Origin: a virus | Lineage: Duplodnaviria > Caudoviricetes | Virus record (IMG/VR): IMGVR_UViG_3300027586_000024 | Location: 1 to 33,742 of that record | Length of the DNA stretch: 33,742 bases | Reading direction: 5' to 3' (one strand) | Shown here: one piece after another, positions 733 through 31,801 of the stretch | Layout of the letters: every line of letters begins with the position of its first letter | How positions within the stretch are numbered: position 1 is the first letter of the stretch | Notes under the pieces: model-generated | Databases searched by the model: none | Told to the model about the DNA's origin: nothing | What the model saw: only the letters and a program-made list of their open reading frames with translations | Translations under genes and position numbers: made by a program

Positions 733-1727
733 TCTATAGATCCACTAAATCCAAAATCATCACCCTCTTCAATTAACAAGTCATCTTCTGTAGTAATTGA
801 TTTAGCTTGTGCTCCAGAAAGATGTGATGTAATTGGTGTCCCATCTTTACCTCTTTCAACTGTAAGAACGTTTCCAGTTACGAGTGTTACATATACTTCT
901 TCTCCTTCAATTTCCAAATACACACCCTTAACAATAGATGCTGCACTGTTGACTGTAATTAAAGTATCTTCTTTAGTAATATCCTTTGACAAAGTAGTTA
1001 GTACTGTACCAGTGTAATTTTTAATAGATCTTGGTAATGTTGTGTAAATAACATCTCTTGTCGTGCTTTTACTATCTCCAGAAACATATCCAACAGAAGT
1101 TTTTTTGATAACATCTTTTGTTGCAGAAGAAATAGGACCAAAGAGATAAGTTTTAGCAGTAAACCTTAATGTGTAAATAAGAACTCTTCGTGTAGTAAAG
1201 TTACCTTCATAATCATCCTGCATCGTAATATTTTCAAGAACTACAGGAACGTCTCTTTTTTCATTAATAATATCTACCAACTCAAGTGTCATTGAATATG
1301 ATGGTTGAAAATATGGTAAAATTTGCTCAATAATTTGAAGTGCATCATCATTCAATTTGGACATAATGCTTAACTCAAACTGCATATTGTATGGAACTGG
1401 AAGATATGCTTTTTTAGTTTCAGTTCCGTCAGTTGAAGATTTTACAAGAAAAGTTTGTGTTGTTGTAGATTTGCGAGTTGGATCATAAGTTAATCCAGTA
1501 AATTCAAATGACATTCTTGGTAATGTAATTTGAACCGGTTTACTTAAATCTGGAGATTGCTCCAATCTTGCAAGAAATTTCTGTGTAGGTCCATATGCAA
1601 GTGGAACTTTAATTACACTTTTCACATTATCAGAATTATCTGTATGCTTAATGTTAATTTCGTTAAATAAAGAACCAAAAGAAACTACAGTTCTTCTTAA
1701 AATTTCGTGATAGAAATATTCAAACAT
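729..1727 (-). CDS. gp15: Tail sheath stabilizer / tail terminator protein, with an extra ~70 aa beta domain near the C-terminus
   Basis: YFYHEILRRTVVSFGSLFN, KVPLAYGP, LPRMSFE, PVPYN, QIIEQILPYFQP motifs; gp13-14-15-16 synteny. Confidence 0.93.
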   Translation of the reverse strand: MFEYFYHEILRRTVVSFGSLFNEINIKHTDNSDNVKSVIKVPLAYGPTQKFLARLEQSPDLSKPVQITLPRMSFEFTGLTYDPTRKSTTTQTFLVKSSTDGTETKKAYLPVPYNMQFELSIMSKLNDDALQIIEQILPYFQPSYSMTLELVDIINEKRDVPVVLENITMQDDYEGNFTTRRVLIYTLRFTAKTYLFGPISSATKDVIKKTSVGYVSGDSKSTTRDVIYTTLPRSIKNYTGTVLTTLSKDITKEDTLITVNSAASIVKGVYLEIEGEEVYVTLVTGNVLTVERGKDGTPITSHLSGAQAKSITTEDDLLIEEGDDFGFSGSIE

Positions 1728-1777: not shown

Positions 1778-3190
1778 CTATGGCATTCCGAATGGATTAG
1801 TGCTACTAAAATCAATAATATCTTCTGCCTCTGTTTCTATATCACTATTATCAGAATATCCATCTTCAATTGCAAAAATATCAATAGATCTAAGTTTTCT
1901 TGAAGCACTTGATGCGGTTCCAACAATGGATTCTCCTGGTGTAAATGATCCAGAAACTGTTGCAACTTCTAATACATTAGTTATAACATTCCAAGATCTA
2001 ACTCTTGCAGTTGTTCCACTTGTAGAACCTGTCACAATTTCGTTAAAGACAAAAGTTCCAACACCAACAATTTGTGGTGGGTTCTCAATAGTAATAATTG
2101 GTGATGTAGTATATCCTAATCCAGCATTTGTAATTCTAATTTGAGTAATTGTTCCTGCTGCACTTACTATAGCAGTCGCAGCAGCAGATACTGTTGCAAT
2201 ACCAGTAAATGTAATTGTAGGAATGCCAACATATCCACCACCACCATTTGTTATAGTAATTATTCCAACAACACCATTTCCAATAGTTGTTGTAGCAGCT
2301 GCTCCAACTCCATCTCCAAAAAACAATACTTTAGGAGCAACCGTATACCCTGCACCAGGATTAATAACTTCTACTGATTGAACTGATTTTGCTTTTGGGT
2401 CTATATTATCCGCACAAACAACAATTCCACCAATCATTGTTACAGATCCAATGCCAGTCACTCCTCCAGAAGGTGCTGAAGATATCGAAACTCGTGGTGC
2501 ATGTGTATATCCACCACCTCTGTTTGTAACAGTAAAGAATCTTATACCACCATTTACAATTGTGATAATAGCAGTTGCTGTTACTCCAGCACCTATCATA
2601 TTCAGTTTTTGTGTTCTGCCAAGAGAAATTGTTGAGATGCCACTTTCAGAACTCCCAGAAAGAACATTATCAATGAAATCAATCCCAGTGTCAATAACTT
2701 CATCTTCATACCTAAACAGTTCACATTTTAAAGTATAAACATAATTTGTTTGAAGTTGATAAAAGGGTTGCTCATGTTCAACAAATTTAATTTCAAATAA
2801 TCTATCACCAAGAGGAAAATAAATTAAATCTCCTTCTTTAGGTCTTGTAGATAACTTAATATTTGCATGATCTTTAATTAGGGGTGTTATGTACTCTTCA
2901 AATCTTTCTTTTGATATTACAATTGTTAGTTCATTAAGTGCTTGAATACCAAACTTTGATAAGATTGTGGTATTATCACCATATCCATCAAAGTTTTCAA
3001 CATATGCTTCAATTGGATATGAACGATCAAATGCGGATTCAATAACCTCCCGCATTATAGTTTTTTCTGTTATATATTTTCTTGGAAGATAATGAACTTC
3101 AACACCATACATTCGCAGTTGTTCATTTATAAGGTCTTGAATTAGACCTTGTTCTGATTTAGATCCTTGAAGAAAAAATGGGTTAAGCAT
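1778..3190 (-). CDS. gp14: Neck protein with inserted NxGxGY repeat domains
   Basis: MLNPFF..EQGLIQDLINEQLRMYG, RPKEGDLIYFPL, FEIKFVEHEQPFYQL, LKCELF, C-terminal IIDFS..NPFG motifs. Confidence 0.93.
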   Translation of the reverse strand: MLNPFFLQGSKSEQGLIQDLINEQLRMYGVEVHYLPRKYITEKTIMREVIESAFDRSYPIEAYVENFDGYGDNTTILSKFGIQALNELTIVISKERFEEYITPLIKDHANIKLSTRPKEGDLIYFPLGDRLFEIKFVEHEQPFYQLQTNYVYTLKCELFRYEDEVIDTGIDFIDNVLSGSSESGISTISLGRTQKLNMIGAGVTATAIITIVNGGIRFFTVTNRGGGYTHAPRVSISSAPSGGVTGIGSVTMIGGIVVCADNIDPKAKSVQSVEVINPGAGYTVAPKVLFFGDGVGAAATTTIGNGVVGIITITNGGGGYVGIPTITFTGIATVSAAATAIVSAAGTITQIRITNAGLGYTTSPIITIENPPQIVGVGTFVFNEIVTGSTSGTTARVRSWNVITNVLEVATVSGSFTPGESIVGTASSASRKLRSIDIFAIEDGYSDNSDIETEAEDIIDFSSTNPFGMP

Positions 3191-3193
3191 AGT

Positions 3194-4039
3194 TTAACCA
3201 ATCATATCGTATGGTGGAAGTTCATACGTATTGGACATTTTTTCCATAAGCATATCCAATTCCTTCTGTGCATCATCATACATTTGTCTTCCATTTAATT
3301 CAACTCCACCAGGAAGTTTAACTCCAGTAAACTTCATCATATTTTGTCCCCACTGACGTTTGATCAATGAAGTTAGGTATGGTTTAATAAAGGAATCATT
3401 ATAAACTCTAGCATAATCATTTGGATCTAATGTTGAATAACAATCGATAACAAAATAATCATTTTCTTTTATAACCCCCCAATCAATATCCAAATATAAT
3501 CTTTCTTGTCTTTTATTAAATCGAATTTGTTTTTGTGTATTTAGAAGAAAATCTAAATCTTCCAAATATGTTTTAACCATTGAATAATTTAAGAGCTCTG
3601 TAGCTCCTAAAAAATAAATGTCATTTAAGAACATTTGATATTTGATACTAAACATACCTCTTGAAGTATTAGCTCCATCAAATGTAAAAATTTTATTTAC
3701 ACCAATAACATTAGGAGGAAGTTGAATATAATTACTATTTTCTGTATATGAAAAAGTTGTTGCTGTTCCAACAATACTTGTTGTTACAGTAGTTGTTGCA
3801 ATTCCAACGACATTATTAGATCCTACTACTGCTGTACCACGAGAAATATCTGCTGCTGTTGTTTTATATTTAAAAAAAGCAGGATAAACTCCATCAAAAT
3901 GTCTTTCTTGAAAAAATTGAATTGCATCATCAACCAAATCATCAATCTGTTCATCTGCAACATTAATTTCAAGTACAGGCGCGCCTAGTTTTCTTTTACA
4001 GTAATCTATAAGTTCCTGTCTAGTTGATGGTTGCGCCAT
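3194..4039 (-). CDS. gp13: Neck protein / head completion adaptor
   Basis: ELIDYCKRKLGAPVLEINV, ERHFDG, IKRQWGQNMMKFTGVKLPGGVELNG motifs. Confidence 0.94.
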   Translation of the reverse strand: MAQPSTRQELIDYCKRKLGAPVLEINVADEQIDDLVDDAIQFFQERHFDGVYPAFFKYKTTAADISRGTAVVGSNNVVGIATTTVTTSIVGTATTFSYTENSNYIQLPPNVIGVNKIFTFDGANTSRGMFSIKYQMFLNDIYFLGATELLNYSMVKTYLEDLDFLLNTQKQIRFNKRQERLYLDIDWGVIKENDYFVIDCYSTLDPNDYARVYNDSFIKPYLTSLIKRQWGQNMMKFTGVKLPGGVELNGRQMYDDAQKELDMLMEKMSNTYELPPYDMIG

Positions 4040-4242: not shown

Positions 4243-4465
4243 TAATTAACCTCCTAAGTAAAAATTTAATTTCATTCAGATCTTCTTTCATATTAGCAAC
4301 ATCAGATTCAAGATTTTGTACTTTTTCAGTCTCTTTTAATTTAGAGTCCCTCCTAGAAATGTATCCGTTGTATTCAGACATATTAGTGTTAATGATAGAA
4401 TTTGTTTTGGGATCTCGGAGTAAGTTATCATGTCCCTTCACTTTAATATAGTCCATATTAGGCAA
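4232..4465 (-). CDS. Conserved hypothetical protein with C-terminal coiled coil
   Basis: YIKVKGHDNLLRDPKTNSIINTN motif, typical gene directly downstream of the DUF4815 protein in T4-like cyanophages; overlaps both neighbours. Confidence 0.8.
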   Translation of the reverse strand: MPNMDYIKVKGHDNLLRDPKTNSIINTNMSEYNGYISRRDSKLKETEKVQNLESDVANMKEDLNEIKFLLRRLINES

Positions 4466-7400
4466 GTGTAATCACTCTCAGATTTCTTACTCTAGGAACA
4501 TAAACTTGGTTAGTTGATGTCATAATAAGTTTAATCCTATATGATCTAAATGGTGCTTGTATATTTGCAGTAAAGGTGCGTTCTTTATAATCTAATTCTG
4601 GGGAAGCAAATCCGATAGAGTTTGATAAAGAAACAAATTTATCAGATGAACCATCGCTATCTTTAATATCAATAATTTCTCCTTCTGCATTAATATTTTT
4701 ATATCCAGGAAATGGAATAAAGATTGGATTAAAATTGTTATTTTCACTAACTGCATAAAATGCACGAATGTCATGATAAAGATTTATATAAGCATCTAAT
4801 ATGATTTTAATAGAAGATGCTGGACTTTCTAAAGTAATTTCTTTTGAAATATATTGACATGCCGATGGATCTGGATCTATTGAATTTACTCTTGCATCGG
4901 TTGCATAGTTACTAATTGCACTATTTACTCTATTTGAAGTTAAAATTGCACTAATTCTTTGAGTGTCTAAAACCGGTGAAACTTTTGAATTAACAGTGTC
5001 AAGTCTTAATCTCATATTTATTGACCTATTACCCTTTAAATTGGATAATTTATTGCTTTCATTTACTTTTGATGCAATAATTCTTGTACTGCTTAAATAA
5101 TTAGGAATATTAATTGTGATTGGTTCAAATCCATTATTACGGAACGAAACTTCATCTCCACTAATACTAGAACCAGTAATAGTTCTTACTTCAGCACTTA
5201 ATGAAGTGCCTTGCACAGTTACATTATGAACCATTGGGGTAATAATTTCAAATGGCATATTTTGTGTTGCTGCAATATTATTTCCACCAGTTGATTTTGT
5301 TTGATTTGCATAAAGAACTGGGAAACTAGTTCCGACACTTCTATTAACACCATCAATAGATCCGTCAATTTTAATATCATAAGAATCAAAAGTAATTGGA
5401 TTTGAAACGGTTACATTATTTAAATCATGTGTTTTATTAATTCTTCTCAAAGAAATTCCATTTATTTCATACTTATGTATTTGGGTTCCAATAGGATGTG
5501 TTTTTGGTGTGGATCCTTCTAACCCTCTGACAATGGTTCCAGAAATTGATGCTCCAGATACCAAAGTGTAAGAAATAATTTCATTACCAATGATTGCATA
5601 TCCAGGATTAGTAGTACCAACACCGACATTTTCAAAAGCAGAGAAAGCACTAGAGTCATCAACAGATATTGATCCCGTAAAATCTGCTGCCAATTGTGCA
5701 GTTAATTTAGTTGGATTAATGTCCGATTTTACATTAGAAATTGTAACTAAGTTATCCCTAGAATACATTCCATGATTTCTATGATCTACTTTAACGTGCA
5801 GTCCATCAGTTTCAGTAATTATTTCATTAACCAAAACAGTAGTTCCATTTAAATTTATTTCTCCAACGCCAGATTTAATGTATGTAATCGATTTACCAGC
5901 ACCAACAACAAACTCTCCTTGAACATTATCTAATATAATTTGATTAATGTCAATGACACTTTTAACTGATAATCTTGCATTTATACCAACATTTGTTGCT
6001 CCAATATTGGAAATTCCAAGCACATCTCCAATTTGATATCCAGTCCCCCCAGAAGTAATATCTGCATTAATTACCTTCCCCCCATTTATTAAAATTGAAC
6101 CAACTGCATTTCTACCACTACCAGTAATTGTTTGTAAACTAATTCCAGTAAAAAGTTGCTCACCAGACGATGGGGTATATCCAATGCCAGCATTAATTAT
6201 ATTTAATGTATCTGTTGCAGCTCCCGCGCTTCCTACATAATTACCAGATGCATTTGTTCCGGATTGTAAAACAGTATTTCCAAGAGTTAAAAAACCATCA
6301 GTAAGGTTTGCTCCTAAACTAAGCCTAATTTTTCTAGAAGTAAAGTTAAGTGAATTTGGCATCAATTGTGCAATTTGCTTGTTACCTCTAGAAAGTTCTG
6401 GACTATAAACTTCTACGGTTCCAGAATCTATAAAATCTGCACGATAAAGATTAAATTTAAGATCTTCCCACTGACTTGCTTCCCAAGTAGAGGCATTTTG
6501 AGATTTAAATAGTGATCCCAAATATGGTTGATTGGAAATAAATGATTGAGTTAAGAGATCAGTTTCTCCAATTCTAGAAATATAAACACTATATTTTGTA
6601 GAGTTTGATGCCAAACACATACAATATTCCTTACCACCTTCAAGATAGACGGGTGCTTTAAATCTTATTGGTGTAGCAATTGATCCATCACCAGATGTTT
6701 GAACCTGATTAGGTTCAATAACAACTTCTGAAAATGGAATAACATTTTGCGTTGGAAATCCATTTAGCATCGTTCTTAGTTGGAACGTTACTGGAATATC
6801 CATATCATCTTTAGATCTGAAGAAAACATCACACCTAGTTAAGAAAAGTCCAACTTCATCATCAATTAAAAATGATTGTGCAAGGGGATCATACCATCCA
6901 ATAATTCCTTGTCTTTGTGTTTGTGCAATAACTCTACTACCAACAACCTGAGTTCCGGTAGTTCGTGAAAGAGATCTTTCTTCAAATTCTTGTTTGTTTT
7001 CAATTCTAGCATTTCTAATTGATATAATATTTTCCTGAACAGTTTCTAAAATTCCACTTGATAAAAATCCTTCTTCAGCAATTGTTGAAGCAAGATTCTG
7101 ATCGTTTAGGTCATTATTCACTAATGTAAAAGTTTTATTTCCTGCTTGAAATCTAGGATGAATACCTATATTGGGATTTGGAATGAAGAAACTTCCTATT
7201 AACGTTGATGATACATCTGGAATAAGTTTTATATTTGTAATTATAGCTTGAGCTCCACTCGTTTGCCCAACAAGCTCCATTCCGGATTCTACATATCCAC
7301 TGAAAGTTCCCTGAGGTTCATTTGATAAAGAGAAAGTATCAACGTTTAAAATATTTGATGTTGAAGAATAGTTTGGTTGTAATGTTTGATTTGTATATGG

Positions 7401-10400
7401 ATTTTGTGAAAATGTTGTGTTTGGAGAATTATATGGACCTTCTTTATGATTTGATTGCGATACTCTAAATCTTATTTCTACAGGTGAAGATGAAATCGGT
7501 CCTAATCCAGTAGATCCAACTTTTCCAACCACAGTTTCTCCAACTTGAAATACACCAGAAAGCATATTGATTTCTAATAATTTAGGAACACAATACTTCG
7601 TTACATCAATGTTATCAAAGAATGCATAAATTTGAGTAAGTGGCTTTAATTTTTTACTAATAAATTGAATATTACGAGATCTCATAGACGCAATAACATC
7701 TCTACTTACGGTTCTATCACCAACAGATGTTGTATCAAATTGTTCAGTAATTATTGTTCTAACACCAGATCTGTTTGATATTCCAGTATCCTTAACTTCT
7801 CTAAGTGTTTCTTCAATAGTAGTTGAGGCATCTACTGTACCAAAAGTTGGTCGTGGTACACCGTCATTACCCCAATCAGGTTTTGGAACATCTGCTGGTC
7901 CAACATTATTAACTGTTGTTCTTGTTGTTTCTGTAATTTCTTGTCCTATCCAATTATCAACCCAAGAATTCCAAGTTGTAGGAGAAAACCCTGTTTGTGG
8001 GTCAACATTAAGAGTTCTTCCTACAAGGGCAAGAGTTTCTGCATAATTTCCTTGTGTATTGATAATTTTTGCTTCAGTTCTTACAGTATCTACCCAGGTA
8101 TCAGATGCCGGAGTTAATTCTAATGTACCTTGCCAAAAACTAATCAGAAAAGGAGTAACACTTTCCGATCTTGTTGCAAAAGTTTGTTGTAACCACAAAA
8201 CCTCCGCATAATCCAAAGTAATAATGTCACTAGTTTTTCTAACATTAACTCCTTCAACTGGAGAAAATGCTAGATCAAATGTTGGATCTACGTTTTGTAC
8301 TGGACCAAAACTCAAATCAACAGAACTCGTATAATGTGCTGGTCTTAATTCTTTATTTTTTCCATCTATACTATTTTTAATTTCAATACTAGTTTCTTGT
8401 GCTAATATTGTGGTAAAATTATCTACAAAAAATCCAGATTTAAATCTATTTAATCCTGCAGAATCTGGAACAAAGAGATTGGCAGTATTTGTTTCAAGCA
8501 AAGATAGTGAAGTATAATATTCTAAATTTTTAATTCTATTTTCAAGTTGTCTAATATCTACCGCTCGATATCTTTTATGTTCTAAAAATTGAAGAGATAT
8601 TTGTGACGTTGAATATGTATATGGTGGGAACGTAATAACGCCTATCTCAAGAGCGTCGTCCACAGAATCTGGTTTTTGGGGACTTTCTGCTGGAGTTCCA
8701 TATTTAACTATAAATTTTCCATCTTTTGTTAAGAAAATTCTATCAATTCTCCCCAGATAGAAAGAAAAATCAGTCAAAATTTGTTCATCTGATGCAAGAA
8801 TATTTGCTGCAGAGTTGCCAGAAGAATTGAAAGTTCTTCCTAAAAATTCAAAAGGTGACCTTGCATTCTCAGAAACTGTATAAGGAGAAACTCTTGGTCG
8901 GATATCAATAATATCTGATATACTGTTACTATCAACAACCGATAACTCAGATCCATAATCAAATGTGCTATATGAGTTTATTGTTGTAATATCACCATCA
9001 TCCGAAGAACCATAAAAACCACTTGTAAAATAAACTATTATTTTTTTATTCGGTTCCACTGCATTTGATTTTCTTTTAATTGTCCCATAATCATAAAAAG
9101 ATCCTTTTTGTCCAGATGAAAATGTATAGTTAAAAGAAATATTAAAACTTGATGAATCTAAAGCAACAATTACTGCTTGAATTTTAGATTCTCTAAAATA
9201 TACAGATTGTCCTTCTCTAAAAGTATTTTCATTTTTTGGAATAAAGGATATTTGTACTGCACTTAATCTTTCTGCAACAATACCAATAGGACCTCCACCT
9301 TCTCCTACAATTTCTTCTCCAATTATTAAATCAGAGGTTGTATTGGTTGGTCCATTAAGATTTGAAAAAACCATTTTTGGTGCAGAAGGATTCTCAGTAT
9401 CTGCTGATTCAAAAATACCATGAATTTCAATAACATCAGGTACATTTAATGAAATATTTTTGTCTTGTACTCTAGTTCCAAAAGCATAATTTCCATATGT
9501 AAGACCATCGTCCAATGTTGTTGCTCCAACACCAGACCCTGCATTTATTGATTTATTGATAATAACACTATTAACTCTATTTTTTATTTTTTGTTTTGCT
9601 TTTGGTTTAATTTTTCTTATGGTCGTTGTTAGTCTTGCTCCGGCATCGTTAGAACCCAAATTAAAAATTTGAAGTTCTGTCCCACCACTAAGAAACAAAA
9701 ACCTATCTGACGTTAACAGTTCGGTAGAACCATCAGATCTTATTAATGAATATCTTTCTTCATCAAAAGGTAAAAATGTTTCATTTTCTCCTGCAACAAC
9801 TGAAGAAGAAAGCTGATTAGATATAATATTGACATTAAAAGATTTTCTAATAGATAAAACAGCATTTGTTAATTCTACTGAAGAAATATTATTTTTTGGA
9901 AGTTTTGTATATAAAGTATTATCTGATGAAGATGCTAAATTAGTTCCCAATACTTTTAAATCTGAAACTGAAAGTAATGAAGTTGGAAATTCACCAACAC
10001 ATACTCCAGGAACCTCTGCAATTTCAATAGAAGGACCTAAAGGATCAATTACTCCACCAATTTGAATTGACGATTCTCCTACAGATATAACTTTTCCATA
10101 AAAAGGATCTACGGTACTTCCTGTTGCATAAGAAATTATATTGTCTTTTTTAATTGTTCCTGGAAACAATTTATTTGGTGATATTATATCATTTGTAAAT
10201 AATAAGTTGCTAAAATTTACTGGACTTCCTGTAATTAAAGAAGAAATAGTCGTGAATTCTAAAACAGTTCCAATTCCAATTGCAAAAGATACTGTACTCC
10301 CGGTTCCAATAGTAATAAATGTTGTACCTACACCGACAACAGACAATCCACGATTTATACGAGATATTATAATATTTGTACCAGCAATTAATGAAGAAAC

Positions 10401-13076
10401 ATTGTTAAATCTCATGACTTCTCCAATTTCAATCGCAGAAGATATTGTACTTCCGGTTCCAATAGTAATAAATGTTGTGCCTACACCGACGACAGACAAT
10501 CCAAAATTTATACGAGATATTGTAACGGCAGTTCCTACTGAAATTGTAGAAGATATTGTACTTCCAGTTCCAATAGTAATAAATGTTGCACCTAAACCAA
10601 CAATAGGAGCATTTGTAATTGCAGCTCCAACACTAATAGAATTTCCTATGGCAACTCCAGAAAGATTTGTAACAAATATTTGTGTTGATCCAATACCAAC
10701 AAAAGAAGAAATTGTTGTAAATGCAGGTGTCCTTACAAGATCGAAAGAACTTCCAACAGTAACTCCAATAGGAACTGTAGCAAACAACACAGTAGATCCT
10801 ATACTCACACTCCTATCAATTGATAAATTAAGTAAACTTCCTGTTGTAGACCCAGATCCAATAAAGATAGACGTTGTACCTAAACCAACAATAGGAGCAT
10901 TTGTAATTGCAGCTCCAACACTAATAGAATTTCCTATGGCAACTCCAGAAAGATTTGTAACAAATATTTGTGTTGATCCAATACCAACAAAAGAAGAAAT
11001 TGTTGTAACTACAGGTGGCCTTACAATATTAAAAGAACTTCCAATAGAAATTTCTGTGGTGGGTGAAACAAACAACACAGTAGATCCTATACCCACACTC
11101 CCAGTAAGTTGTAAATTAAGTAAACTTCCTGTTGTAGATCCTGTTCCAATAGTTATAAATGTAGATCCAACACCAGTTACAAATGCATTTGTAACTTCAG
11201 AATCAGATCCAATAGTAACAGAACTTCCTACAGATACTCCAGAAGTGTCATCTACAAAAATCTGAGTTGATCCTATACCAATTGTTGATGTAACAGTAGT
11301 TCCTAAGAAATCAATATTTGAATTATACGCAAGAGGAGAAATTGTTGCAAATCCAATAAAAGATGAGGTTGATTGAATAGTATCAGCAGAAAATATAAAT
11401 CCTCCTCCCAGTGTACCATAGACTGATTTAATATCAGAAATATTATATGATGTAACTGCAGTTGCTACTCTATTACCAGAAATCCCATTAAAAAGTAATG
11501 GATCATCTTTTGAAAAATTACCACTTATATCATATAAGGTGATTAAATTCTTTGCACTAACTGCATCTTTAAGAAACCCAGTTGCCCCACTATTTTTTCC
11601 TTCAACAAAAGTTGGAACTGCTAGTGTAATAGGCTCATTCAGACTAATTTCAACAGTAGTTTGAACATCATATAAAGAAAGACTCCATTCATTTAAGTGC
11701 GTCAATGTAGTTCTATATGATCCAGATTCTAGCTTAAAATCATATACTCTAGCAACACCTATTTCCTTACCAGGTACAGTGGTTTGATTATCACCAACTC
11801 TCTCATTTCTTAAACTTAATACATACGTATTTCCAATTCCAATTAGAGGAGCTCCATAAACTCTATTTAAAAATAATGTAGGTCCTGTATTATAATTAAT
11901 TGATTGATTTTCTAGAGTTTTAACAGTTCTTGGTTTTGGTACATCTAAAAATGTTGAATTAATCGTTTCTACTTCATACCCCATAATGAATGCTCTACCT
12001 GGGGATACTTGATAAATTGATAGAGCATCAGATGGAGTTAGTCCACTAGAAGTAAACTGACCAATTTGATAAATACCCTGATTTCCTCTATTATTATTTA
12101 AAGACTCTTTTACTGAAACATCAAATGGAGTATGAACAGAATTTCCAAATTGAGCATGAAATCTTTTTGCTAATACATCATTAATTATAGAATATTCAGA
12201 TGATTTTACTAAGGTTTTTAAAACACCATCAGTTATAGTTGTTAATTCTACAAAATTATTATCATCATAATCATTTAAACTCTTTTTAAATAATGATGTT
12301 GTAATTTTTAATCTATCTGCACCAGGTGCCGCATAATTATTAAATCCTTGTGAGTTATCATTTAGTCTTTGATCAATATCTGAGTTAATAATTTGTTCAT
12401 TTACAAACAAACCAACTCTATAGCTTGGTTTATTACTATATTGCTCAAGAATCAAAGTTTCGGTATCTACATTTACAAAATTTCCACGAATAAAATAAAC
12501 ACCATTTGTAATGTTAAAAGCAGATCCAATTGCTGCAGCATTTTTTGCAATAGTTGTTGCAAAAGGTTGACCTGAAGCAATAGTAGTATTTCCTAAAAGA
12601 CTGGAAGTAATTTGTATATCTGCAATTAATGATTCTCCATCAGCAAATATTTCAGTTATATTATTCTGAGAACTTGAACTCAAGTAATTAATGTAAAGAG
12701 TGAGATTTCCTCTTTCCGATTCTTGTGAAGAAAGAACTTTATCTACAATTGCAGTTACACTAGAATTTGCCCCAGTAATTTTAACTCCAACAAGTTGATT
12801 TACATATGCTTCAACAGGGACTCCCAGAAAAGTATTTTCAAGTTGAATACAATAGTATAATTGTGTGTACCCAGTATTTCCCGGTATTACTTTAGCACCT
12901 TCTTTAAAAAAATGTTGCCCAAACTTTTCAATTTGATTTTGAAGAATTGATTGAAGAGTTGTTAATTCTCTTGCCTGGACAGGAGTTCCGGGTTTAAAAA
13001 GAACTTTATGATAGTCATTATTTGCATTAAAGTCATCAAAATACGGTGCTACATTGAGATTAGTTTGCTGAGACAT
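4458..13076 (-). CDS. Giant virion structural protein (DUF4815 / VrlC-like, baseplate-associated), 2872 aa
   Basis: N-terminal TNLNVAPYFDDF..KVLFKPG.PVQARELTTLQSILQNQIEKFG, APGADRLKI, LENRIKNLEYYTSLSLLE, RFKSGFFVDNF, DPLAQSF, GSLFKSQNASTW motifs; location after gp8. Confidence 0.8.
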   Translation of the reverse strand: MSQQTNLNVAPYFDDFNANNDYHKVLFKPGTPVQARELTTLQSILQNQIEKFGQHFFKEGAKVIPGNTGYTQLYYCIQLENTFLGVPVEAYVNQLVGVKITGANSSVTAIVDKVLSSQESERGNLTLYINYLSSSSQNNITEIFADGESLIADIQITSSLLGNTTIASGQPFATTIAKNAAAIGSAFNITNGVYFIRGNFVNVDTETLILEQYSNKPSYRVGLFVNEQIINSDIDQRLNDNSQGFNNYAAPGADRLKITTSLFKKSLNDYDDNNFVELTTITDGVLKTLVKSSEYSIINDVLAKRFHAQFGNSVHTPFDVSVKESLNNNRGNQGIYQIGQFTSSGLTPSDALSIYQVSPGRAFIMGYEVETINSTFLDVPKPRTVKTLENQSINYNTGPTLFLNRVYGAPLIGIGNTYVLSLRNERVGDNQTTVPGKEIGVARVYDFKLESGSYRTTLTHLNEWSLSLYDVQTTVEISLNEPITLAVPTFVEGKNSGATGFLKDAVSAKNLITLYDISGNFSKDDPLLFNGISGNRVATAVTSYNISDIKSVYGTLGGGFIFSADTIQSTSSFIGFATISPLAYNSNIDFLGTTVTSTIGIGSTQIFVDDTSGVSVGSSVTIGSDSEVTNAFVTGVGSTFITIGTGSTTGSLLNLQLTGSVGIGSTVLFVSPTTEISIGSSFNIVRPPVVTTISSFVGIGSTQIFVTNLSGVAIGNSISVGAAITNAPIVGLGTTSIFIGSGSTTGSLLNLSIDRSVSIGSTVLFATVPIGVTVGSSFDLVRTPAFTTISSFVGIGSTQIFVTNLSGVAIGNSISVGAAITNAPIVGLGATFITIGTGSTISSTISVGTAVTISRINFGLSVVGVGTTFITIGTGSTISSAIEIGEVMRFNNVSSLIAGTNIIISRINRGLSVVGVGTTFITIGTGSTVSFAIGIGTVLEFTTISSLITGSPVNFSNLLFTNDIISPNKLFPGTIKKDNIISYATGSTVDPFYGKVISVGESSIQIGGVIDPLGPSIEIAEVPGVCVGEFPTSLLSVSDLKVLGTNLASSSDNTLYTKLPKNNISSVELTNAVLSIRKSFNVNIISNQLSSSVVAGENETFLPFDEERYSLIRSDGSTELLTSDRFLFLSGGTELQIFNLGSNDAGARLTTTIRKIKPKAKQKIKNRVNSVIINKSINAGSGVGATTLDDGLTYGNYAFGTRVQDKNISLNVPDVIEIHGIFESADTENPSAPKMVFSNLNGPTNTTSDLIIGEEIVGEGGGPIGIVAERLSAVQISFIPKNENTFREGQSVYFRESKIQAVIVALDSSSFNISFNYTFSSGQKGSFYDYGTIKRKSNAVEPNKKIIVYFTSGFYGSSDDGDITTINSYSTFDYGSELSVVDSNSISDIIDIRPRVSPYTVSENARSPFEFLGRTFNSSGNSAANILASDEQILTDFSFYLGRIDRIFLTKDGKFIVKYGTPAESPQKPDSVDDALEIGVITFPPYTYSTSQISLQFLEHKRYRAVDIRQLENRIKNLEYYTSLSLLETNTANLFVPDSAGLNRFKSGFFVDNFTTILAQETSIEIKNSIDGKNKELRPAHYTSSVDLSFGPVQNVDPTFDLAFSPVEGVNVRKTSDIITLDYAEVLWLQQTFATRSESVTPFLISFWQGTLELTPASDTWVDTVRTEAKIINTQGNYAETLALVGRTLNVDPQTGFSPTTWNSWVDNWIGQEITETTRTTVNNVGPADVPKPDWGNDGVPRPTFGTVDASTTIEETLREVKDTGISNRSGVRTIITEQFDTTSVGDRTVSRDVIASMRSRNIQFISKKLKPLTQIYAFFDNIDVTKYCVPKLLEINMLSGVFQVGETVVGKVGSTGLGPISSSPVEIRFRVSQSNHKEGPYNSPNTTFSQNPYTNQTLQPNYSSTSNILNVDTFSLSNEPQGTFSGYVESGMELVGQTSGAQAIITNIKLIPDVSSTLIGSFFIPNPNIGIHPRFQAGNKTFTLVNNDLNDQNLASTIAEEGFLSSGILETVQENIISIRNARIENKQEFEERSLSRTTGTQVVGSRVIAQTQRQGIIGWYDPLAQSFLIDDEVGLFLTRCDVFFRSKDDMDIPVTFQLRTMLNGFPTQNVIPFSEVVIEPNQVQTSGDGSIATPIRFKAPVYLEGGKEYCMCLASNSTKYSVYISRIGETDLLTQSFISNQPYLGSLFKSQNASTWEASQWEDLKFNLYRADFIDSGTVEVYSPELSRGNKQIAQLMPNSLNFTSRKIRLSLGANLTDGFLTLGNTVLQSGTNASGNYVGSAGAATDTLNIINAGIGYTPSSGEQLFTGISLQTITGSGRNAVGSILINGGKVINADITSGGTGYQIGDVLGISNIGATNVGINARLSVKSVIDINQIILDNVQGEFVVGAGKSITYIKSGVGEINLNGTTVLVNEIITETDGLHVKVDHRNHGMYSRDNLVTISNVKSDINPTKLTAQLAADFTGSISVDDSSAFSAFENVGVGTTNPGYAIIGNEIISYTLVSGASISGTIVRGLEGSTPKTHPIGTQIHKYEINGISLRRINKTHDLNNVTVSNPITFDSYDIKIDGSIDGVNRSVGTSFPVLYANQTKSTGGNNIAATQNMPFEIITPMVHNVTVQGTSLSAEVRTITGSSISGDEVSFRNNGFEPITINIPNYLSSTRIIASKVNESNKLSNLKGNRSINMRLRLDTVNSKVSPVLDTQRISAILTSNRVNSAISNYATDARVNSIDPDPSACQYISKEITLESPASSIKIILDAYINLYHDIRAFYAVSENNNFNPIFIPFPGYKNINAEGEIIDIKDSDGSSDKFVSLSNSIGFASPELDYKERTFTANIQAPFRSYRIKLIMTSTNQVYVPRVRNLRVITLA
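10294..10590. repeat. Three in-frame imperfect repeats encoding (SRINxGLSVVGVG)TTFITIGTGST
   Basis: gtact(c/t)c(c/a)gttccaatagtaataaatgttg-like unit at 10294, 10447 and 10558 (offsets 153 and 111 nt). Confidence 0.85.
10590..11165. repeat. 288-bp-period in-frame tandem duplication with a 131 bp identical core
   Basis: 10590-10720 is identical to 10878-11008; further matching blocks at 10782/11070 and 10825/11113 keep the 288 nt offset. Confidence 0.9.
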
Positions 13077-20600: not shown

Positions 20601-23600
20601 TTTCTTCCGGAACTTTTGTGATATCATAGGTAAATGACGTACTAGATCCTGATATAATTTTATGTTGTCCATTGTATTGACTTTTATAAACTTGAATTTC
20701 ATTATTTGATAAAACTTCACGATCTTCATTAATTAACTTTTTATTTTCGGGAAGAGTTCCATTATAAATTGGAACTAAATTATAATAGAGTTTTTGTGGT
20801 GTGTTTTTATTAATTGATAGAGAAACTCTTGCATCACTTGTAATTCCAACAGTTCCTACTTTTTGCACATTAAAAAGTTGATCACTAGAGTTGCTATCAT
20901 AATTTTCCGTAAAATTAGAGTCTTTAAAGAATTTTAAATCAAATGCAGGATAACGTGTTGCTTGTTGAGTATATGAAAGAGAAGGATCTGATAAATCAAA
21001 TATAACTAAAGAGTTTCTATATACTTGAATTGGTGGATTGATTGCAGATAATGTTCCATTTGATGCACTAGTAATGCCAACAATCTCGGGTTTTACGTTA
21101 ATAGAATCATAGTAAGTATTAGTAAGTTTAATATTATTAGTATCAACTATATAAATAAAATATTCTTTATCACTCTCAAGCCCAACTGCAGGAACGGATG
21201 CGGTGTGAATTACTTTTTGTCCATTCTCAAATTTATGATTTAAGATTGTAATTGTATTTGTAAGTGTATTAATTCCAGCAGAAATAAAATCTTTTGGATT
21301 TACTAATACTTTTCTAGAATAATCATTATATTTGAAAGTAAATGTGGTTGATATAGATGGATTTACATCAACAAAAACAATATCATTATTTAAAAGTCCA
21401 TGACTTTGTGCGGTAGATACTGTAATAGTATTTTTTGAAATATTTCCTGATAAACTATTATATTTTGTTTTAAAACTATGATTGTTTCCTGTGCCCACAT
21501 TTGTAAAGAATAGAGTTCCCATTTCCCGAGTAGTACTTGCAATTCCAACGAAAGTTCCTCCAGTTCCAATTCCAATTTTAAATGTAGAGATACCAATTAA
21601 ATCATTCGATATTTTTGCAACATAAACTATAGATTGGTCTGAAATTGATACCGAAGTTGATATTCCATTTGTAGAAACTCCAATCGGATTTCCACCATTT
21701 GTAGAGTAAATTAATTCATCACCAGTGTCTAATCGGTGATTTGAAATATAGATAGATTTCGTAGGAATAAAAATTTGTGTAGCACCAGTTCCCGGATTTG
21801 AAAAGATTATGGTAGAACCAATTCCAATTTCCGAACGAGTGCTGAAAGTCACCACAGTTCCAATACCAAGTACATCTGCAACTGTAGATGATGTTCCAAT
21901 TTGAACAAATGTGGATGCAACAGAAACAATTGGTCTAGTTGTAATTGTGCCTGGACCTACTACACTAATAGAACTTACACCAGCAATAATTCCGGTTGTA
22001 TCAACAACAAAAATTATCGTCGACCCAATTCCAACAGGTGAACTAATAGTTGTTGTACGAAAAACTATATTTTTTGCAACAATTGTTCCTAATCCAACAG
22101 CATCAATTGGATTGAAATAATATTCACGATTTATTTTATAATCATACTGTGACCTAAATCCCGAATTTATTGTAAATTTTCTAGAATTCTCATATAAAGG
22201 AGTAGTAATGCTATGAGAAGATCCAACAGTTCCATTTACTGCACGAAGAACTCTAATTCTTGATGATCCTACATCAACATTTAATACTTTAATTTTTTCT
22301 GTTCCTATTCCCAGAATATCATTTTCTCTAATATTTGGATAATTTAAGTTTCCTGCGACAGAAAAATAAGTAACAATTCCAGTTACTGCCGTGCTACCAA
22401 TACTAACGGCAATGCCAATTGTATTTGTTGATATTCCAATTCGATATGATCCTTCAATCAAAGATGATGTTGTATTTAATCCAGAAACAACAACCAAAGC
22501 AGTATTTGTAAAATTATGTGGATTTTCAGAAAATACTAAGAAATTTCCTCGGGGTGTAGTTGGATAAAATTCAACATTAGATATTGAAGTAGTTGCTACA
22601 CTGATTGAATTTACAGATTTTCCGGAAATTCTTTCTATTTCGGCAGAAGCATTGTATCCATCAGTACCTTCATTATCAAATATTAATTTATCTCCAATTT
22701 TATATTCAACACCACCAGAAGTTATGTTTATTGTTTCTATAAAACCTGAAGAAGCATATTTAATGTCTGCGGTCTGATTTAAAAGATTTTGAAGGTCTAC
22801 GTATTGATAAGGAGTGGTAAAAGAATCACTTTCAAGTAAATTATATGGATTAGTATTTCTTGAAAAACTAGTTTGATTTAAATCAAAATCACTTTGATTT
22901 GATGTTTTTTTGAAATTAAATTGATTCGGTTTTGAATTAAAATTATTCCCAATTAAATATGGAAATATTGGTGACTTATATCCATCAAAGGGTCCAGATG
23001 AGTCTGCACCAGAATTATTAATTGTTGCAAAATATGCATATGTTCCATTTGGATATTCTGGAGTGACACAAAATCTTCCATTATTTTTGTCCAATACAGT
23101 TTCATCAGAAACTTGAAAGTGACTATAATCTTGAATAAAAAATCCATTAGGAAATGAAGATAATGAAGGTCTATTTTGTGTCAAATTAAGTCCTGACTTA
23201 AGTTTATATCCAGACTTCATTTGAGATACTATTCCACCTTGTTTTGTGGAGTACCCATATGGACCATAGATTGGATTTCCATCATATGCCCACCCTATAA
23301 TTGGTGAGTGGTCAGTTGATAATACCTCATCATCTCCAATCTTTCTTAAATCTCTTTTTCCATATAAAGTATTTCCATCAGAGTCTGAAGAATAAACAAT
23401 TTCTCTAAGTTTTCTTGGTGCATAAAGATGAGAATATTCCAATTCGAAATTTTCATTAATTCCTTCAGATAAAACTCCATCATCATCGGAGATAATTGAT
23501 AGATTTTTTTCAAAAATATTAACATTCCACGATTGTATTTTTGGATTAAATTCTTCTAAAGATCCTGTAGAAAGAACATCTATTGAAGTAGTGTCTGATA

Positions 23601-27440: not shown

Positions 27441-29534
27441 TTAATATCCTGAAGAATATGATGGTCCAGAAGGTGCTGATGGTGCTGAAGATGTTGTAGA
27501 TGAAGATGTTGTAGATGAAGATGTTGCAGATGAAGATGTTGTAAATGAAGATGAGGTTGAAAATGGTGTAGCAACTACCGCACCTGCAGCAACTCCCCCA
27601 ATTTCATTTGTTGGACGAACTAAAAGACCATTTACATAACTTGAAGATTGAATATAACTGGATGCAGATGGATCAAGTCCTGAAGAAATACTATCAACAA
27701 CCATTTCAAAAGTACTACTTCCAATATCTAATTGCAAATATAAATCTTGTAATCCAATCACATCATTTGAATGAGGAGTTGTAGAAATTTCAAGAATTGT
27801 TTGTCCATCTTTTATTTTTCCTGCTTGAATATTTATTGGGTTTAAAGTTATTATACCTTTCTTATAATTTACATTACCTATATTTCTTCTTACTATTGTT
27901 GGAGTTGTTGAATTTATTGAGGGTATTGTAAATAAAAATAAAGATCCAACTTCTCTGTTTGTATTTGGAATATCTGAGATATAAACAATTTGTGAGGTAG
28001 ATGATTCTCGAAACGCAGAAGATTTAATGTTATAACCATTCATGCTATTAATATGAAACTCATTTCCAAAACCAATTTGATATTCAGTAAATGTGTTTAG
28101 TACAACTCTTAAATCTCTCCTCATCTGTATTGTTGTAATATTTGAAGTTACTGCATCATTACTTTCATCAATAATTTTTAAGAATTTACTATATTTAAAT
28201 CTTGCTCCGTACTTATTCAACTCAGTTGACTCTGCATATTTTTTAGTGTTATTTTGAATGATACTTGATACATATTCAGCACTTGGTGCAAAATTAGTAT
28301 TGTAATAAACTTTGGAATTTATTTCAAGATAAATATATTTTAAATCTAAAATCTCAGGAACAATCCCTGCAACCGCATATTTTTTAAGATCACGTTTGAT
28401 ATTTTCTTTAACTAAATTTGGTAAAAAATCACCTGATCTTGGTTTAATACTTATAAAGACTTTACCATATTGTGGTGGAATTAAATCTTCTCCACCAAAT
28501 ACCGAAATAGATTCAGTTTCTTCATAAATTTTTGCAGGAATTAATGTTTCATAATCGTTTGCCGTAAGTGCTCTATTTTGAGATGCATATATTCTTGGAG
28601 CATATCTTTTAATGGATTCTATTGGCTCAATATTTTCTCCACCTGATGCAATTAATCCAGTGGTTAACAATGAAATTCCTGAAGTAACTGTGTATTCTAT
28701 AGAGTTTCGATTGTATGTAATTCTTCCTGCAAATGTAAATTGACTTATGCCATTTGCACTATCACCATTTGAAGTGATGTATCCAACTTCAATAAAGTTT
28801 CCCTCTTCAAGTTTCTTGCCAAAAATTCCATCACCAAAAATAAGTTCATATCTTTCATCTTCAATTTCTTGTAGAAAGAAAACTTTAGAGTCTTGATTGA
28901 TTTGAAAAAGACTATCTTGACGATTATATTTTGTTGAACTTGTACTCTGTTCATTAGTTTTTATTAATACAGAAATCAAATCAGTATCAATACCACTATT
29001 TGGTAAAATAAATCTTTGATTTAGATTTCTAGAACTATAAGTAAAATTATTTACTAAACGATTTCCTTGATAAACCTTAAGATTATTAAAAGTTGCTATA
29101 TTATTAAAGACCGGAACCGTTATATCTTCTAAAATACAGAACACATAGGACTGATTACCAAAGTCACCCGCAGTGCTTGCTACAGTCCCTTTATGGAGGG
29201 TTAGAGAGGATGGTACGGGTGTTATGCTAGATGTATCGACAAAGAAGCTTACTGTTGCTTGTGCTGCTTTTCTTGAACGTGGGATATATCCAATATTTCT
29301 TGCAAGTGCTACGACATTTTCTCTAAGAGTAGCACTATCAATAAAAACTTCATTTGCCACCATATTTGCATTATATGATGTGATGTAGGTGTTATATGCC
29401 AACACATCAAGAATAGACGATAGATTAGATCCTTCAAAATCATAATCCGTGAAATTAGAATTAGATTTTAAATAATCTCTAAGACTGGTTTTTATCTGAT
29501 CGAAATCTAGATTTGAAAAATTTGCTAATGGCAT
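27441..29534 (-). CDS. gp6: Baseplate wedge subunit with Ser/Thr-rich C-terminal tail
   Basis: LDFDQIK, FTDYDFEGSNLS.ILDVLAYNTY, E.FIDSATLRENVVALAR.IGY.P.S, FGDGIFGKK, QNRALTANDY, PPQYGKVFISIKP motifs. Confidence 0.94.
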   Translation of the reverse strand: MPLANFSNLDFDQIKTSLRDYLKSNSNFTDYDFEGSNLSSILDVLAYNTYITSYNANMVANEVFIDSATLRENVVALARNIGYIPRSRKAAQATVSFFVDTSSITPVPSSLTLHKGTVASTAGDFGNQSYVFCILEDITVPVFNNIATFNNLKVYQGNRLVNNFTYSSRNLNQRFILPNSGIDTDLISVLIKTNEQSTSSTKYNRQDSLFQINQDSKVFFLQEIEDERYELIFGDGIFGKKLEEGNFIEVGYITSNGDSANGISQFTFAGRITYNRNSIEYTVTSGISLLTTGLIASGGENIEPIESIKRYAPRIYASQNRALTANDYETLIPAKIYEETESISVFGGEDLIPPQYGKVFISIKPRSGDFLPNLVKENIKRDLKKYAVAGIVPEILDLKYIYLEINSKVYYNTNFAPSAEYVSSIIQNNTKKYAESTELNKYGARFKYSKFLKIIDESNDAVTSNITTIQMRRDLRVVLNTFTEYQIGFGNEFHINSMNGYNIKSSAFRESSTSQIVYISDIPNTNREVGSLFLFTIPSINSTTPTIVRRNIGNVNYKKGIITLNPINIQAGKIKDGQTILEISTTPHSNDVIGLQDLYLQLDIGSSTFEMVVDSISSGLDPSASSYIQSSSYVNGLLVRPTNEIGGVAAGAVVATPFSTSSSFTTSSSATSSSTTSSSTTSSAPSAPSGPSYSSGY
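27486..27560. repeat. 15 bp tandem repeat (TGAAGATGTTGTAGA) x ~5 encoding STTSS units
   Basis: Units at 27486, 27501, 27516, 27531, 27546. Confidence 0.9.
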
Positions 29535-31027: not shown

Positions 31028-31801
31028 TTAAATAATACGAGTTTTTTCATGTCCGACACGAATCCGCGGATCGCACCAGATATCATATCCTTTCTCAATG
31101 GCATCAAGACAGAATGAAACATCTTCTCCACACATATCCTGAACTGCACCAGATTCAAAGACTTGCATCTTAGGAGCAAACCAAGGATACTCAAGATTTT
31201 CAAAAACACCCTTCTTAATGAGAACCCAACCAAATCCAGTGTAATCAACTGTGAAAGGCTTCTTACGCTTACTAATTGATTCAATGGTTTCGTGATTCAT
31301 AACTCCACCATTTTTGCGGAAGTCATCTTCCTCTAACCAGTGTGCGACAGAGGTTGTGTGACCATCTTCTGTGGCATACCATCCACCAACGATCTCTTTG
31401 TCCACTCCTTCATTATTCAGTGCTAAATCACAAAGTTGCCAGAACTTGTTAGAATCAAAGACAATATCCGAGTCAATCCATAGTTGATAATCATATTGTA
31501 ATTTACCATCCCAAGGAAGTTGCTTAGGACCTCGTAATACATTTGCACCTAAACACTTACAACGTGCAAAGTTTACCATTGATGAGTAATCTTGTGAGAT
31601 TTGAATACTCATTCCATTTTGTACAATATCAAAACAAAGTTGTACAAATGCTTTTAAAAAGATATAAGAACATCCTCTGCCAGGTAAACAGAAAACAATA
31701 GACTTTCCTTTCATTCTTTCTTTAATTGCACCATAGTCCCAATCTTCTGTTGGTGCTGATGCTCGTGGTGCTGCTGCCTTTACAGTGAATCCTTTTGCCA
31801 T
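31028..31801 (-). CDS. GT-A fold glycosyltransferase-like protein
   Basis: WIDSDIVF (DxD), TGFGWVLIKKGVFE, GEDVSFC, DPRIRVGHEK motifs. Confidence 0.75.
   Translation of the reverse strand: MAKGFTVKAAAPRASAPTEDWDYGAIKERMKGKSIVFCLPGRGCSYIFLKAFVQLCFDIVQNGMSIQISQDYSSMVNFARCKCLGANVLRGPKQLPWDGKLQYDYQLWIDSDIVFDSNKFWQLCDLALNNEGVDKEIVGGWYATEDGHTTSVAHWLEEDDFRKNGGVMNHETIESISKRKKPFTVDYTGFGWVLIKKGVFENLEYPWFAPKMQVFESGAVQDMCGEDVSFCLDAIEKGYDIWCDPRIRVGHEKTRII

What the first reader, a model, noticed from the sequence alone, without database searches (positions are those of the whole stretch)
10207..11310. Matryoshka (nested) insertion of five homologous beta domains in the giant structural protein
Seen: one complete ~70 aa unit sits in the centre (TTISSFVGIGSTQIFVTNLSGVAIGNSISVGAAITNAPIVGLGATFITIGTGSTISSTISVGTAVTISR). 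Before it are alternately a unit lacking its last strand (..TTGSLL), an N-half only (..SSFNIVRPP), a unit lacking its last strand, an N-half only (..SSFDLVRTP). After it come, in mirror order, a C-half (GLSVVGVGTTFITIGTGST..IGEVMRF), a lone last strand (SSLIAGTNIIISR), a C-half, a lone last strand (SSLITGSPVNFS). Inference: the missing pieces pair exactly as domain 5 inside 4 inside 3 inside 2 inside 1, giving an out-and-back stalk rather than beads on a string; lengthening requires coordinated duplication of two separated DNA segments (288 bp on the way out, 153 bp on the way back), both of which are visible.
Basis: partly seen in the sequence, partly recalled or inferred. Interest (0 to 1): 0.8.

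Follow-up and report, generated by a model that had tools for sequence, protein, structure and literature searches.

The report
Telescoping nested-barrel arm on phage baseplate
A giant structural protein of a freshwater T4-like phage, likely part of its baseplate, carries five copies of a small barrel domain predicted to sit one inside another as an out-and-back arm; relatives carry zero to six such domains with opening and closing pieces in exact balance, likely because single recombination events add or remove whole layers.

Summary
Confirmed. Residues 589-957 of the 2872-aa VrlC/DUF4815 protein (4458-13076, minus strand) are an insert that the best cultured cyanophage matches lack. It has one whole 70-aa unit flanked by mirror-ordered fragments.

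An AlphaFold model (pLDDT 79) matches single six-stranded barrels over five strictly nested ranges; domain 4 gives Z 12.7, rmsd 1.3 Å. In 37 of 37 proteins parsed, the return leg is exactly 12+14n residues, with n predicted from the outbound pieces. Relatives carry 0 and 2-6 domains; three are branched, and the one tested carries a PEBP domain. A contiguous version of the split domain exists (P0012).

Correction: two coordinated duplications are not required. One misaligned double crossover gives both repeats, and domain 3 is the expected chimera. Insertion at the tip also lengthens the arm. Two unbalanced contigs look like assembly collapses.

Recursive nesting is known from cyanobacterial RNA polymerase Si3. 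This case uses another fold, lies in a phage structural protein and varies between close relatives. Its function, likely a reach or display arm, is inferred.

The parts
4458..13076 (-). VrlC/DUF4815 giant structural protein, 2872 aa (host protein)
   Evidence: Pfam DUF4815 E 7e-50; phrog_358 full length; PDB 9euf DUF4815/ORF65 E 4e-39
11313..11363 (-). Host barrel, strand leading into the insert (about res 572-588); in insert-free homologs a short hairpin
   Evidence: DSSP strand 19-31 of model; weak barrel matches spanning both model ends, Z 6.3-6.5
11127..11312 (-). Domain 1, outbound part (res 589-650; lacks last strand)
   Evidence: model range 21-394
11013..11126 (-). Domain 2, N-half (res 651-688)
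   Evidence: model range 85-379/381
10839..11012 (-). Domain 3, outbound part (res 689-746); domain-5-like, then domain-1-like
   Evidence: model range 124-345
10725..10838 (-). Domain 4, N-half (res 747-784)
   Evidence: model range 183-327, Z 12.7; unique 217-nt unitig at about flank depth
10512..10724 (-). Domain 5, complete innermost barrel (res 785-855)
   Evidence: model range 217-293
10407..10511 (-). Domain 4, C-half (res 856-890)
10359..10406 (-). Domain 3, closing strand (res 891-906); domain-1-like, then domain-5-like
10254..10358 (-). Domain 2, C-half (res 907-941)
10206..10253 (-). Domain 1, closing strand (res 942-957)
10050..10205 (-). Host barrel, remainder (about res 958-1009)
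   Evidence: conserved in insert-free homologs; DSSP
10556..11131 (.). 288-nt tandem pair (outbound), 88% identical, containing a 131-nt identical run at 10590-10720 and 10878-11008
10228..10525 (.). Return-leg repeat pair, 145 nt at spacing 153, 82% identical
21841..22056 (-). One complete, unsplit copy of the same unit in the neighbouring 4247-aa baseplate-wedge-like gene (res 1789-1860)
   Evidence: unit HMM E 1e-16

Best explanation
The 369-residue insert is predicted to fold as five small six-stranded beta-barrels nested one inside the next, giving an out-and-back arm that likely projects from the phage's baseplate protein and likely changes length when single recombination events add or remove whole layers. 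Shown: the pieces and their mirror order; exact opening/closing balance in homologs; variants with 0, 2, 3, 4, 5 and 6 domains; the unit as a free-standing insert in other structural genes; chimeric junctions in domain 3. Predicted (about 0.9): each domain is completed by pieces from the return leg. The barrel has adjacent ends and two tolerant loops (between its halves, and before its last strand), so a copy can be inserted in either loop without unfolding the host. Inferred (about 0.65): layers are gained by tip insertion of a whole unit, or by one misaligned double crossover between gene copies in which domain 1's middle pairs with domain 5's middle and domain 1's last strand pairs with domain 5's last strand; the reciprocal event removes layers. 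Inferred (about 0.5): the arm is an exposed spacer and display scaffold on the trimeric VrlC/tripod, setting reach towards the host surface and able to carry a cargo domain.
For: Model pLDDT 78.6 with mirror-symmetric long strands. Compact single barrels align over nested ranges 217-293, 183-327, 124-345, 85-379 and 21-394; all 75 residues of 9n71_B 103-177 align across 183-327 at rmsd 1.3, Z 12.7. Tail length is 40/54/68 residues for 2/3/4 predicted closings in 37 of 37 proteins; return spacing is 31-39 for one closing (13 cases) and 51 for two (2 cases). P0012/P0014 hold the split domain in one piece, joined by a short hairpin, and their N-halves group with the split N-halves (support 94, few columns). 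Domain 3 switches 5-1-5 at informative DNA sites; the outer domain of three ABC loci switches 1-2-1 against an AAC locus, more noisily. Domains 2 and 4 differ equally on both legs, 79% and 83%. P0004 and P0012 share 96-98% of their flanks but differ in architecture; insert-free L002 is sister to the two five-domain proteins. The insert in P0041 is a PEBP domain, E 1e-7. DUF4815 relatives are baseplate tripod/pyramid proteins.
Against: No coordinates or contact map were available; the nesting in the model is read from first-last aligned ranges, and outer domains score only Z 6-7.5, which the tool calls middling. pTM is 0.44, so domain-to-domain geometry is not fixed. The single-sequence fold failed (pLDDT 33). 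The 37 proteins fall into six architectures and few lineages, so they are not independent. L016 and L017 carry an unbalanced form (one outbound copy, two return copies); I read this as collapse in the 131-nt repeat, but contigs cannot exclude a rare real deletion. Chimeric junctions arise equally from two successive tandem duplications. Domain 3/5 N-parts are 99% identical, which needs later gene conversion in either model. No binding activity or position in the virion is shown; the insert lies in a region not alignable to the phage 812 structure.
Confidence: 0.72

Rival explanations
1. The nest is real but arose by two successive tandem duplications (288 nt, then 153 nt) through a tolerated unbalanced intermediate.
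For: Both repeats are tandem and give the same chimeric junctions. L016/L017 show an unbalanced form.
Against: No unbalanced form among 37 parsed proteins. The two unbalanced contigs skip exactly within the 131-nt identical run, and depths argue against a common deletion. Both legs diverged equally. The two repeats abut with only about 30 single-copy bases between them, as one event predicts.
Confidence: 0.2
2. The nest is real but is neutral accretion: a recombinogenic mobile barrel piles up at a permissive surface loop and has no selected role in reach or binding.
For: The best cultured relatives and a close relative (L002) lack it. The unit also occurs singly at scattered sites in 10 of 120 wedge-protein homologs and in small genes.
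Against: Every one of the 39 insert-bearing homologs has 2 or more domains in frame. Nesting was seen only at this site among the proteins examined. One lineage carries an extra ~270-aa segment with a PEBP domain on a side branch.
Confidence: 0.25
3. The barrels themselves are low-affinity ligand-binding units (for example for host surface glycans), and nesting multiplies avidity rather than reach.
For: The same fold decorates tailspikes and tail parts (7w1c, 6e0v, 9n71). Domains 2 and 4 differ at 17 of 38 residues in their N-halves but at only 1 of 21 third positions of same-residue codons, a hint of diversification.
Against: No binding family matched the insert. A shared fold shows no function. 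The sample for selection is tiny.
Confidence: 0.2
4. The pieces are not nested within one chain: they form tandem partial domains, a solenoid, or swap between the three chains of a trimer.
For: VrlC relatives are trimers. A monomer model cannot show swaps between chains.
Against: Last-in-first-out spacing, short linkers, nested model ranges and a contiguous natural version of the split domain.
Confidence: 0.06

Closest known systems
Si3 insertion of cyanobacterial RNA polymerase beta' (SBHM/HABAS repeats; PMC10895346, PMC11515920, PMC13114784, passages read)
   Same: Homologous small beta domains recursively inserted into each other, several discontinuous, forming an elongated arm inserted in a loop; up to six levels and branching nodes are described. 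Foldseek also listed 8emb, weakly (E 1.7e-3, TM 0.12).
   Different: Different fold (hammerhead/barrel-sandwich hybrid versus six-stranded barrel). Si3 is in an enzyme subunit and is described as an old lineage-level trait with unclear insertion mechanism. Here the number of layers differs between phages 96-98% identical in the flanks and recent DNA traces remain.
Accessory six-stranded beta-barrels of phage proteins: Mystique tail-tube insert (9n71), K1 lyase insert (7w1c 140-230, recalled as the rider domain), P22 coat I-domain (2m5s); also E1 N-terminal fragment 4p22 and EF-Tu domain II-like barrels
   Same: Same predicted fold, Z 12.7, 9.5, 8.3, 7.5 and about 7; the aligned stretches are single compact domains within larger proteins.
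   Different: The matches are to one domain each; sequence identity is 12-23% and no sequence-level match was found. The name RIFT barrel for this fold is recalled, not from a call.
VrlC/DUF4815 baseplate proteins: Staphylococcus phage 812 tripod (PMC13433997), Listeria phage A511 gp106 (via PMC11406892, PMC4621102; passages read)
   Same: Sequence homology at the N-terminus and in later stretches. These are trimeric, host-facing baseplate proteins.
   Different: The cyanophage-type protein is 2.5 times longer, and the insert lies outside the alignable parts. Equating PDB 'ORF65' with the tripod is my inference from entry contents (9euj, 9euk).

Membership tests
VrlC/DUF4815 protein | Pfam DUF4815 above the curated cut-off | tested here: met
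   170 bits against cut-off 30
VrlC/DUF4815 protein | Position in a T4-like structural operon next to baseplate wedge and neck genes | tested here: met
   gp8-, gp6-, neck- and gp15-like neighbours
VrlC/DUF4815 protein | Trimer located on the baseplate | not testable with these tools
   Known for relatives only
Recursive (nested) domain insertion, A1-B1-C-B2-A2 | Each outer domain is built from two separated segments that enclose the inner domain | tested here: met
   Met in the predicted model (nested ranges) and in sequence logic; no experimental structure
Recursive (nested) domain insertion, A1-B1-C-B2-A2 | Forms lacking the inner domain exist with the host domain contiguous | tested here: met
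   P0012/P0014 (split domain whole) and L002-L007 (no insert)
Si3 / SBHM (HABAS) repeat | Sandwich-barrel hybrid fold | tested here: inconclusive
   The best matches are six-stranded barrels; 8emb appears only weakly in Foldseek. Works like Si3 in architecture; not filed as a member.
Si3 / SBHM (HABAS) repeat | Located in the RNA polymerase beta' trigger loop | tested here: not met
   The host is a phage structural protein
Six-stranded EF-Tu domain II-like / P22 I-domain-like barrel | Closed six-stranded barrel of about 70 residues | tested here: met
   Six strands per unit in DSSP; Z 12.7, rmsd 1.3, 75 aligned; predicted model only
Six-stranded EF-Tu domain II-like / P22 I-domain-like barrel | Common ancestry detectable by sequence | tested here: inconclusive
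   No PDB, Pfam or PHROG match of the insert above cut-off
Six-stranded EF-Tu domain II-like / P22 I-domain-like barrel | GD-box motif (pattern as quoted in PMC11515920) ending each half | tested here: inconclusive
   By eye, both halves of domain 5 match the glycine and four of the five other defined positions
Linear tandem repeat or beta-solenoid | Head-to-tail whole units or a constant short period | tested here: not met
   Pieces are partial and mirror-ordered

The most novel reading that the evidence does not exclude
A family of freshwater myophages uses a self-nesting barrel as a genetically telescoping arm. One recombination event adds or removes complete layers, the arm can branch and carry a cargo domain, and its length is under selection to tune how far the baseplate reaches towards different host surfaces. 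This would be a natural recursive repeat system, and the first in which the mechanism of recursive domain insertion can be watched between close relatives.
Probability: 0.35. Interest if true: 0.82.

Novelty: new variant of a known kind. Interest (0 to 1): 0.64.

Why it matters
Recursive insertion of a domain into copies of itself is rare. The main example I found in print, RNA polymerase Si3, is ancient, and its mechanism is called unclear (PMC11515920). Here the layers differ between near-identical genes and the DNA junctions are still readable, so the origin of such nests can be tested directly. It also points to a way, other than tandem repeats, for phages to vary the size of a likely host-facing structure while both chain ends stay anchored. 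It offers a small barrel with two insertion-tolerant loops as a scaffold for protein design.

Tried and rejected
Single-sequence AlphaFold failed (pLDDT 32.8). Foldseek on the whole model gave only elongated-beta noise (TM about 0.2 or lower), apart from pointing to Si3. ESM Atlas on the central unit gave nothing at 0.9 or above. A PDB profile search gave chance hits only. Pfam DUF5907 on the insert is below cut-off. The last-strand profile missed some outer strands, so a motif-free length test was used instead; two N-halves (P0009, P0029) had to be added from a second tokeniser. P0042 and P0043 were dropped for lack of both flanks in order. P0039-41 were left out of the 37 by length and parsed by HMM and by eye. 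A viral scan with the full-length alignment missed the region. The GTDB genome scan found none of 58 candidates. The earlier-findings index returned nothing. The two-chain test of outbound against return leg was not available, and neither was the search of 1.84 billion representatives, so the wider spread of such nests is untested. The flank tree is the quick version, and no one-clade test was run. Assembly artefact for the five-domain form: rejected. The 374-aa plus-strand ORF 10141-11265 is taken as an antisense shadow and was not tested. Literature searches (open-access library only, listings seen) showed no description of nested repeats in a phage structural protein; subscription papers and supplements were not seen.

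Full report
Setting. The window is a 33.7-kb, 32% GC contig holding a T4-like structural operon on the minus strand: gp6-, gp8-, neck- and gp15-like genes, a 4247-aa wedge-like gene and the 2872-aa ORF 4458-13076. That ORF is VrlC/DUF4815 (Pfam E 7e-50; phrog_358; PDB 9euf E 4e-39). Of 408 phage records with a match, 323 are named Synechococcus phages, and none covers 80% of the query; the best matches lack about 370 residues at the finding. Six related viral loci also lack it (L002-L007). Runs holding the DNA are freshwater or lake metagenomes where labelled (14 of 18 holders). The host is not determined.

Observation. The pieces are as described, and both DNA repeats exist. Call the thirds of the unit N (first half), M (two strands) and L (last strand). 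The window then reads NM N NM N NML ML L ML L, a valid bracket word; 143 of 756,756 orders are.

Is the sequence real? Two metagenome contigs of the same phage (L016, L017) have only one outbound copy but both return copies. Their skip lies exactly within a 131-nt identical run, and four other loci end or begin within it. In 4 of 4 runs laid, the depths of flank / domain-4-unique piece / repeat / flank were 730/715/1467/690, 41/39/76/36, 7/10/24/8 and 8/14/26/15 (three runs may be the source, one is not so flagged). That fits two repeat copies with domain 4 present in essentially all genomes. Contigs cannot exclude a rare deletion. P0003 (63% identical over the region) has the same five-domain order.

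Homologs. One search returned 41 proteins; 39 had both flanks, with inserts of 170-771 residues. I segmented the window and the 36 homologs with inserts under 500 residues without imposing any order (two N-halves added). From the N/M order alone I predicted how many closing strands must follow. In 37 of 37 the distance from the last M to the host anchor was exactly 40, 54 or 68 residues for 2, 3 or 4 closings. Return-leg M spacing was 31-39 for one closing (13 cases) and 51 for two (2 cases). First-in-first-out pairing would give 51 then 26 for the ABC type; 37 then 40 is seen. There are six architectures (AC 3, AAC 13, ABC 4, AAAC 8, AABC 7, ABABC 2; A lacks L, B is an N-half, C is whole) in few lineages, so the count overstates independence. 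With a cruder anchor, 28 of 30 complete arrays in fetched loci were balanced (many duplicate the proteins above, one is the window's own contig); the two exceptions are L016 and L017. P0039-41 have six domains in a branched tree, read by HMM and by eye; the extra segment in P0041 is a PEBP domain above the Pfam cut-off. P0012 and P0014 hold the B-type domain in one piece with a short hairpin where relatives carry the inserted unit. Whole single units occur in 13 of 13 non-VrlC short hits, in the neighbouring wedge gene, and in 10 of 120 wedge homologs, never split.

Structure. Without an alignment the fold failed. With 48 sequences, residues 565-1030 gave pLDDT 78.6 and pTM 0.44, with long strands in mirror order (13, 7, 13, 8, 13 residues out; 16, 8, 16, 7, 14 back). 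I could not see coordinates. In the wide structural search, compact barrels aligned over model ranges 217-293 (8rk3, Z 8.1), 183-327 (9n71_B, Z 12.7, rmsd 1.3, 75 aligned to 75 contiguous residues; 7w1c Z 9.5; 2m5s Z 8.3), 124-345 (7anu, Z 6.5, 69 of 86), 85-381 (8vjh, Z 7.5) and 21-394 (4pgo, Z 7.4, 72 of 90). Adding 564 gives residues 781-857, 747-891, 688-909, 649-945 and 585-958, the boundaries predicted from sequence. About 70 aligned residues spread over spans of 145-374 mean that each domain is made from both legs. Outer Z values are middling, and two weak rows (Z 6.3-6.5) suggest that the host domain has the same fold. An arm of about 3 nm per barrel, roughly 15 nm in all, is an estimate and was not measured.

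Mechanism. At informative DNA sites domain 3 follows domain 5 up to about residue 736, domain 1 from there through the start of its last strand, then domain 5 again. Domains 2 and 4 are 79% identical on the way out and 83% on the way back. This is what one misaligned double crossover gives when domain 1 with its contents is copied over domain 5 of another gene copy. Two tandem duplications give the same junctions but need an intermediate with unpaired pieces, which was not seen. The outer domain of ABC loci is a noisier 1-2-1 chimera relative to an AAC locus, the reciprocal pattern. P0004 (ABC) and P0012 (AAC) share 96-98% of their flanks, so changes are recent. Insert-free L002 is sister to the two five-domain proteins in the quick flank tree, support 100, while their insert resembles the ABC clade's; this suggests loss or exchange of the whole cassette. 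Domain 3/5 N-parts are more alike within a protein (43/44, 41/44) than between the two five-domain proteins (35/44, 33/44), which points to ongoing gene conversion. High recombination in T4-like phages is recalled knowledge.

Function. DUF4815 relatives form trimeric tripods or pyramids that face the host (PMC13433997, PMC11406892, PMC4621102; passages). An insert with both ends in one hairpin must project outward. I take it as a spacer and display arm (about 0.5). Neutral accretion and direct low-affinity binding remain open. Nothing here tests function.

Known and new. Recursive insertion of homologous domains is published for cyanobacterial RNA polymerase Si3: discontinuous SBHM-2 to -5 (PMC10895346), recursively inserted HABAS domains with unclear mechanism (PMC11515920), and six levels with branching nodes (PMC13114784); I read passages only. 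The architecture class is therefore known. My searches showed no report of it in a phage structural protein, with this fold, or varying between close relatives; the library covers open-access papers only. Verdict: real, a new variant of a known kind, interest 0.64.

Noticed in passing
P0039, P0040, P0041 (residues about 850-1140): Branched six-domain nests with an extra ~270-aa segment inside one unit; in P0041 it holds a PEBP domain (PF01161, E 1e-7). A PEBP domain on a phage structural protein is unexpected.
   Followed up: partly
window 21841-22056 (-): A single complete unit inserted in the 4247-aa wedge-like gene. Only 2 of the 120 listed homologs cover this site fully (one is the window's own protein); 10 of 120 carry a unit somewhere.
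   Followed up: partly
window 798-1001 (-): [quoted passage not shown]
   Followed up: no
L016:2501-3319, L017:2501-3319: Unbalanced allele (288 nt skipped within the 131-nt identical run); read as an assembly collapse, but a rare real deletion is not excluded.
   Followed up: partly
L002:2914-7409: Insert-free VrlC that is the closest flank relative of the five-domain proteins (75-80% to the window): clean loss or exchange of the whole cassette.
   Followed up: partly
L035-L037, matches near 2200-3500: A different large protein with two whole units inserted about 180 residues apart among other beta repeats.
   Followed up: no
window 10725-10838 and 11013-11126 (-): The N-halves of domains 2 and 4 differ at 17 of 38 residues but at only 1 of 21 third positions of same-residue codons: possible diversifying selection, small sample.
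   Followed up: no
window 31028-31801 (-): A 257-aa ORF that looks by eye like a glycosyltransferase (DSD motif; recalled resemblance, not searched). The insert is very Ser/Thr-rich, so glycosylation is a possibility.
   Followed up: no
window 10141-11265 (+): A 374-aa open frame antisense to the insert; taken as a shadow of the codon bias.
   Followed up: no
window 27486-27553: A 15-nt x 4.5 tandem repeat encoding a Ser/Thr-rich tail on the gp6-like protein.
   Followed up: no
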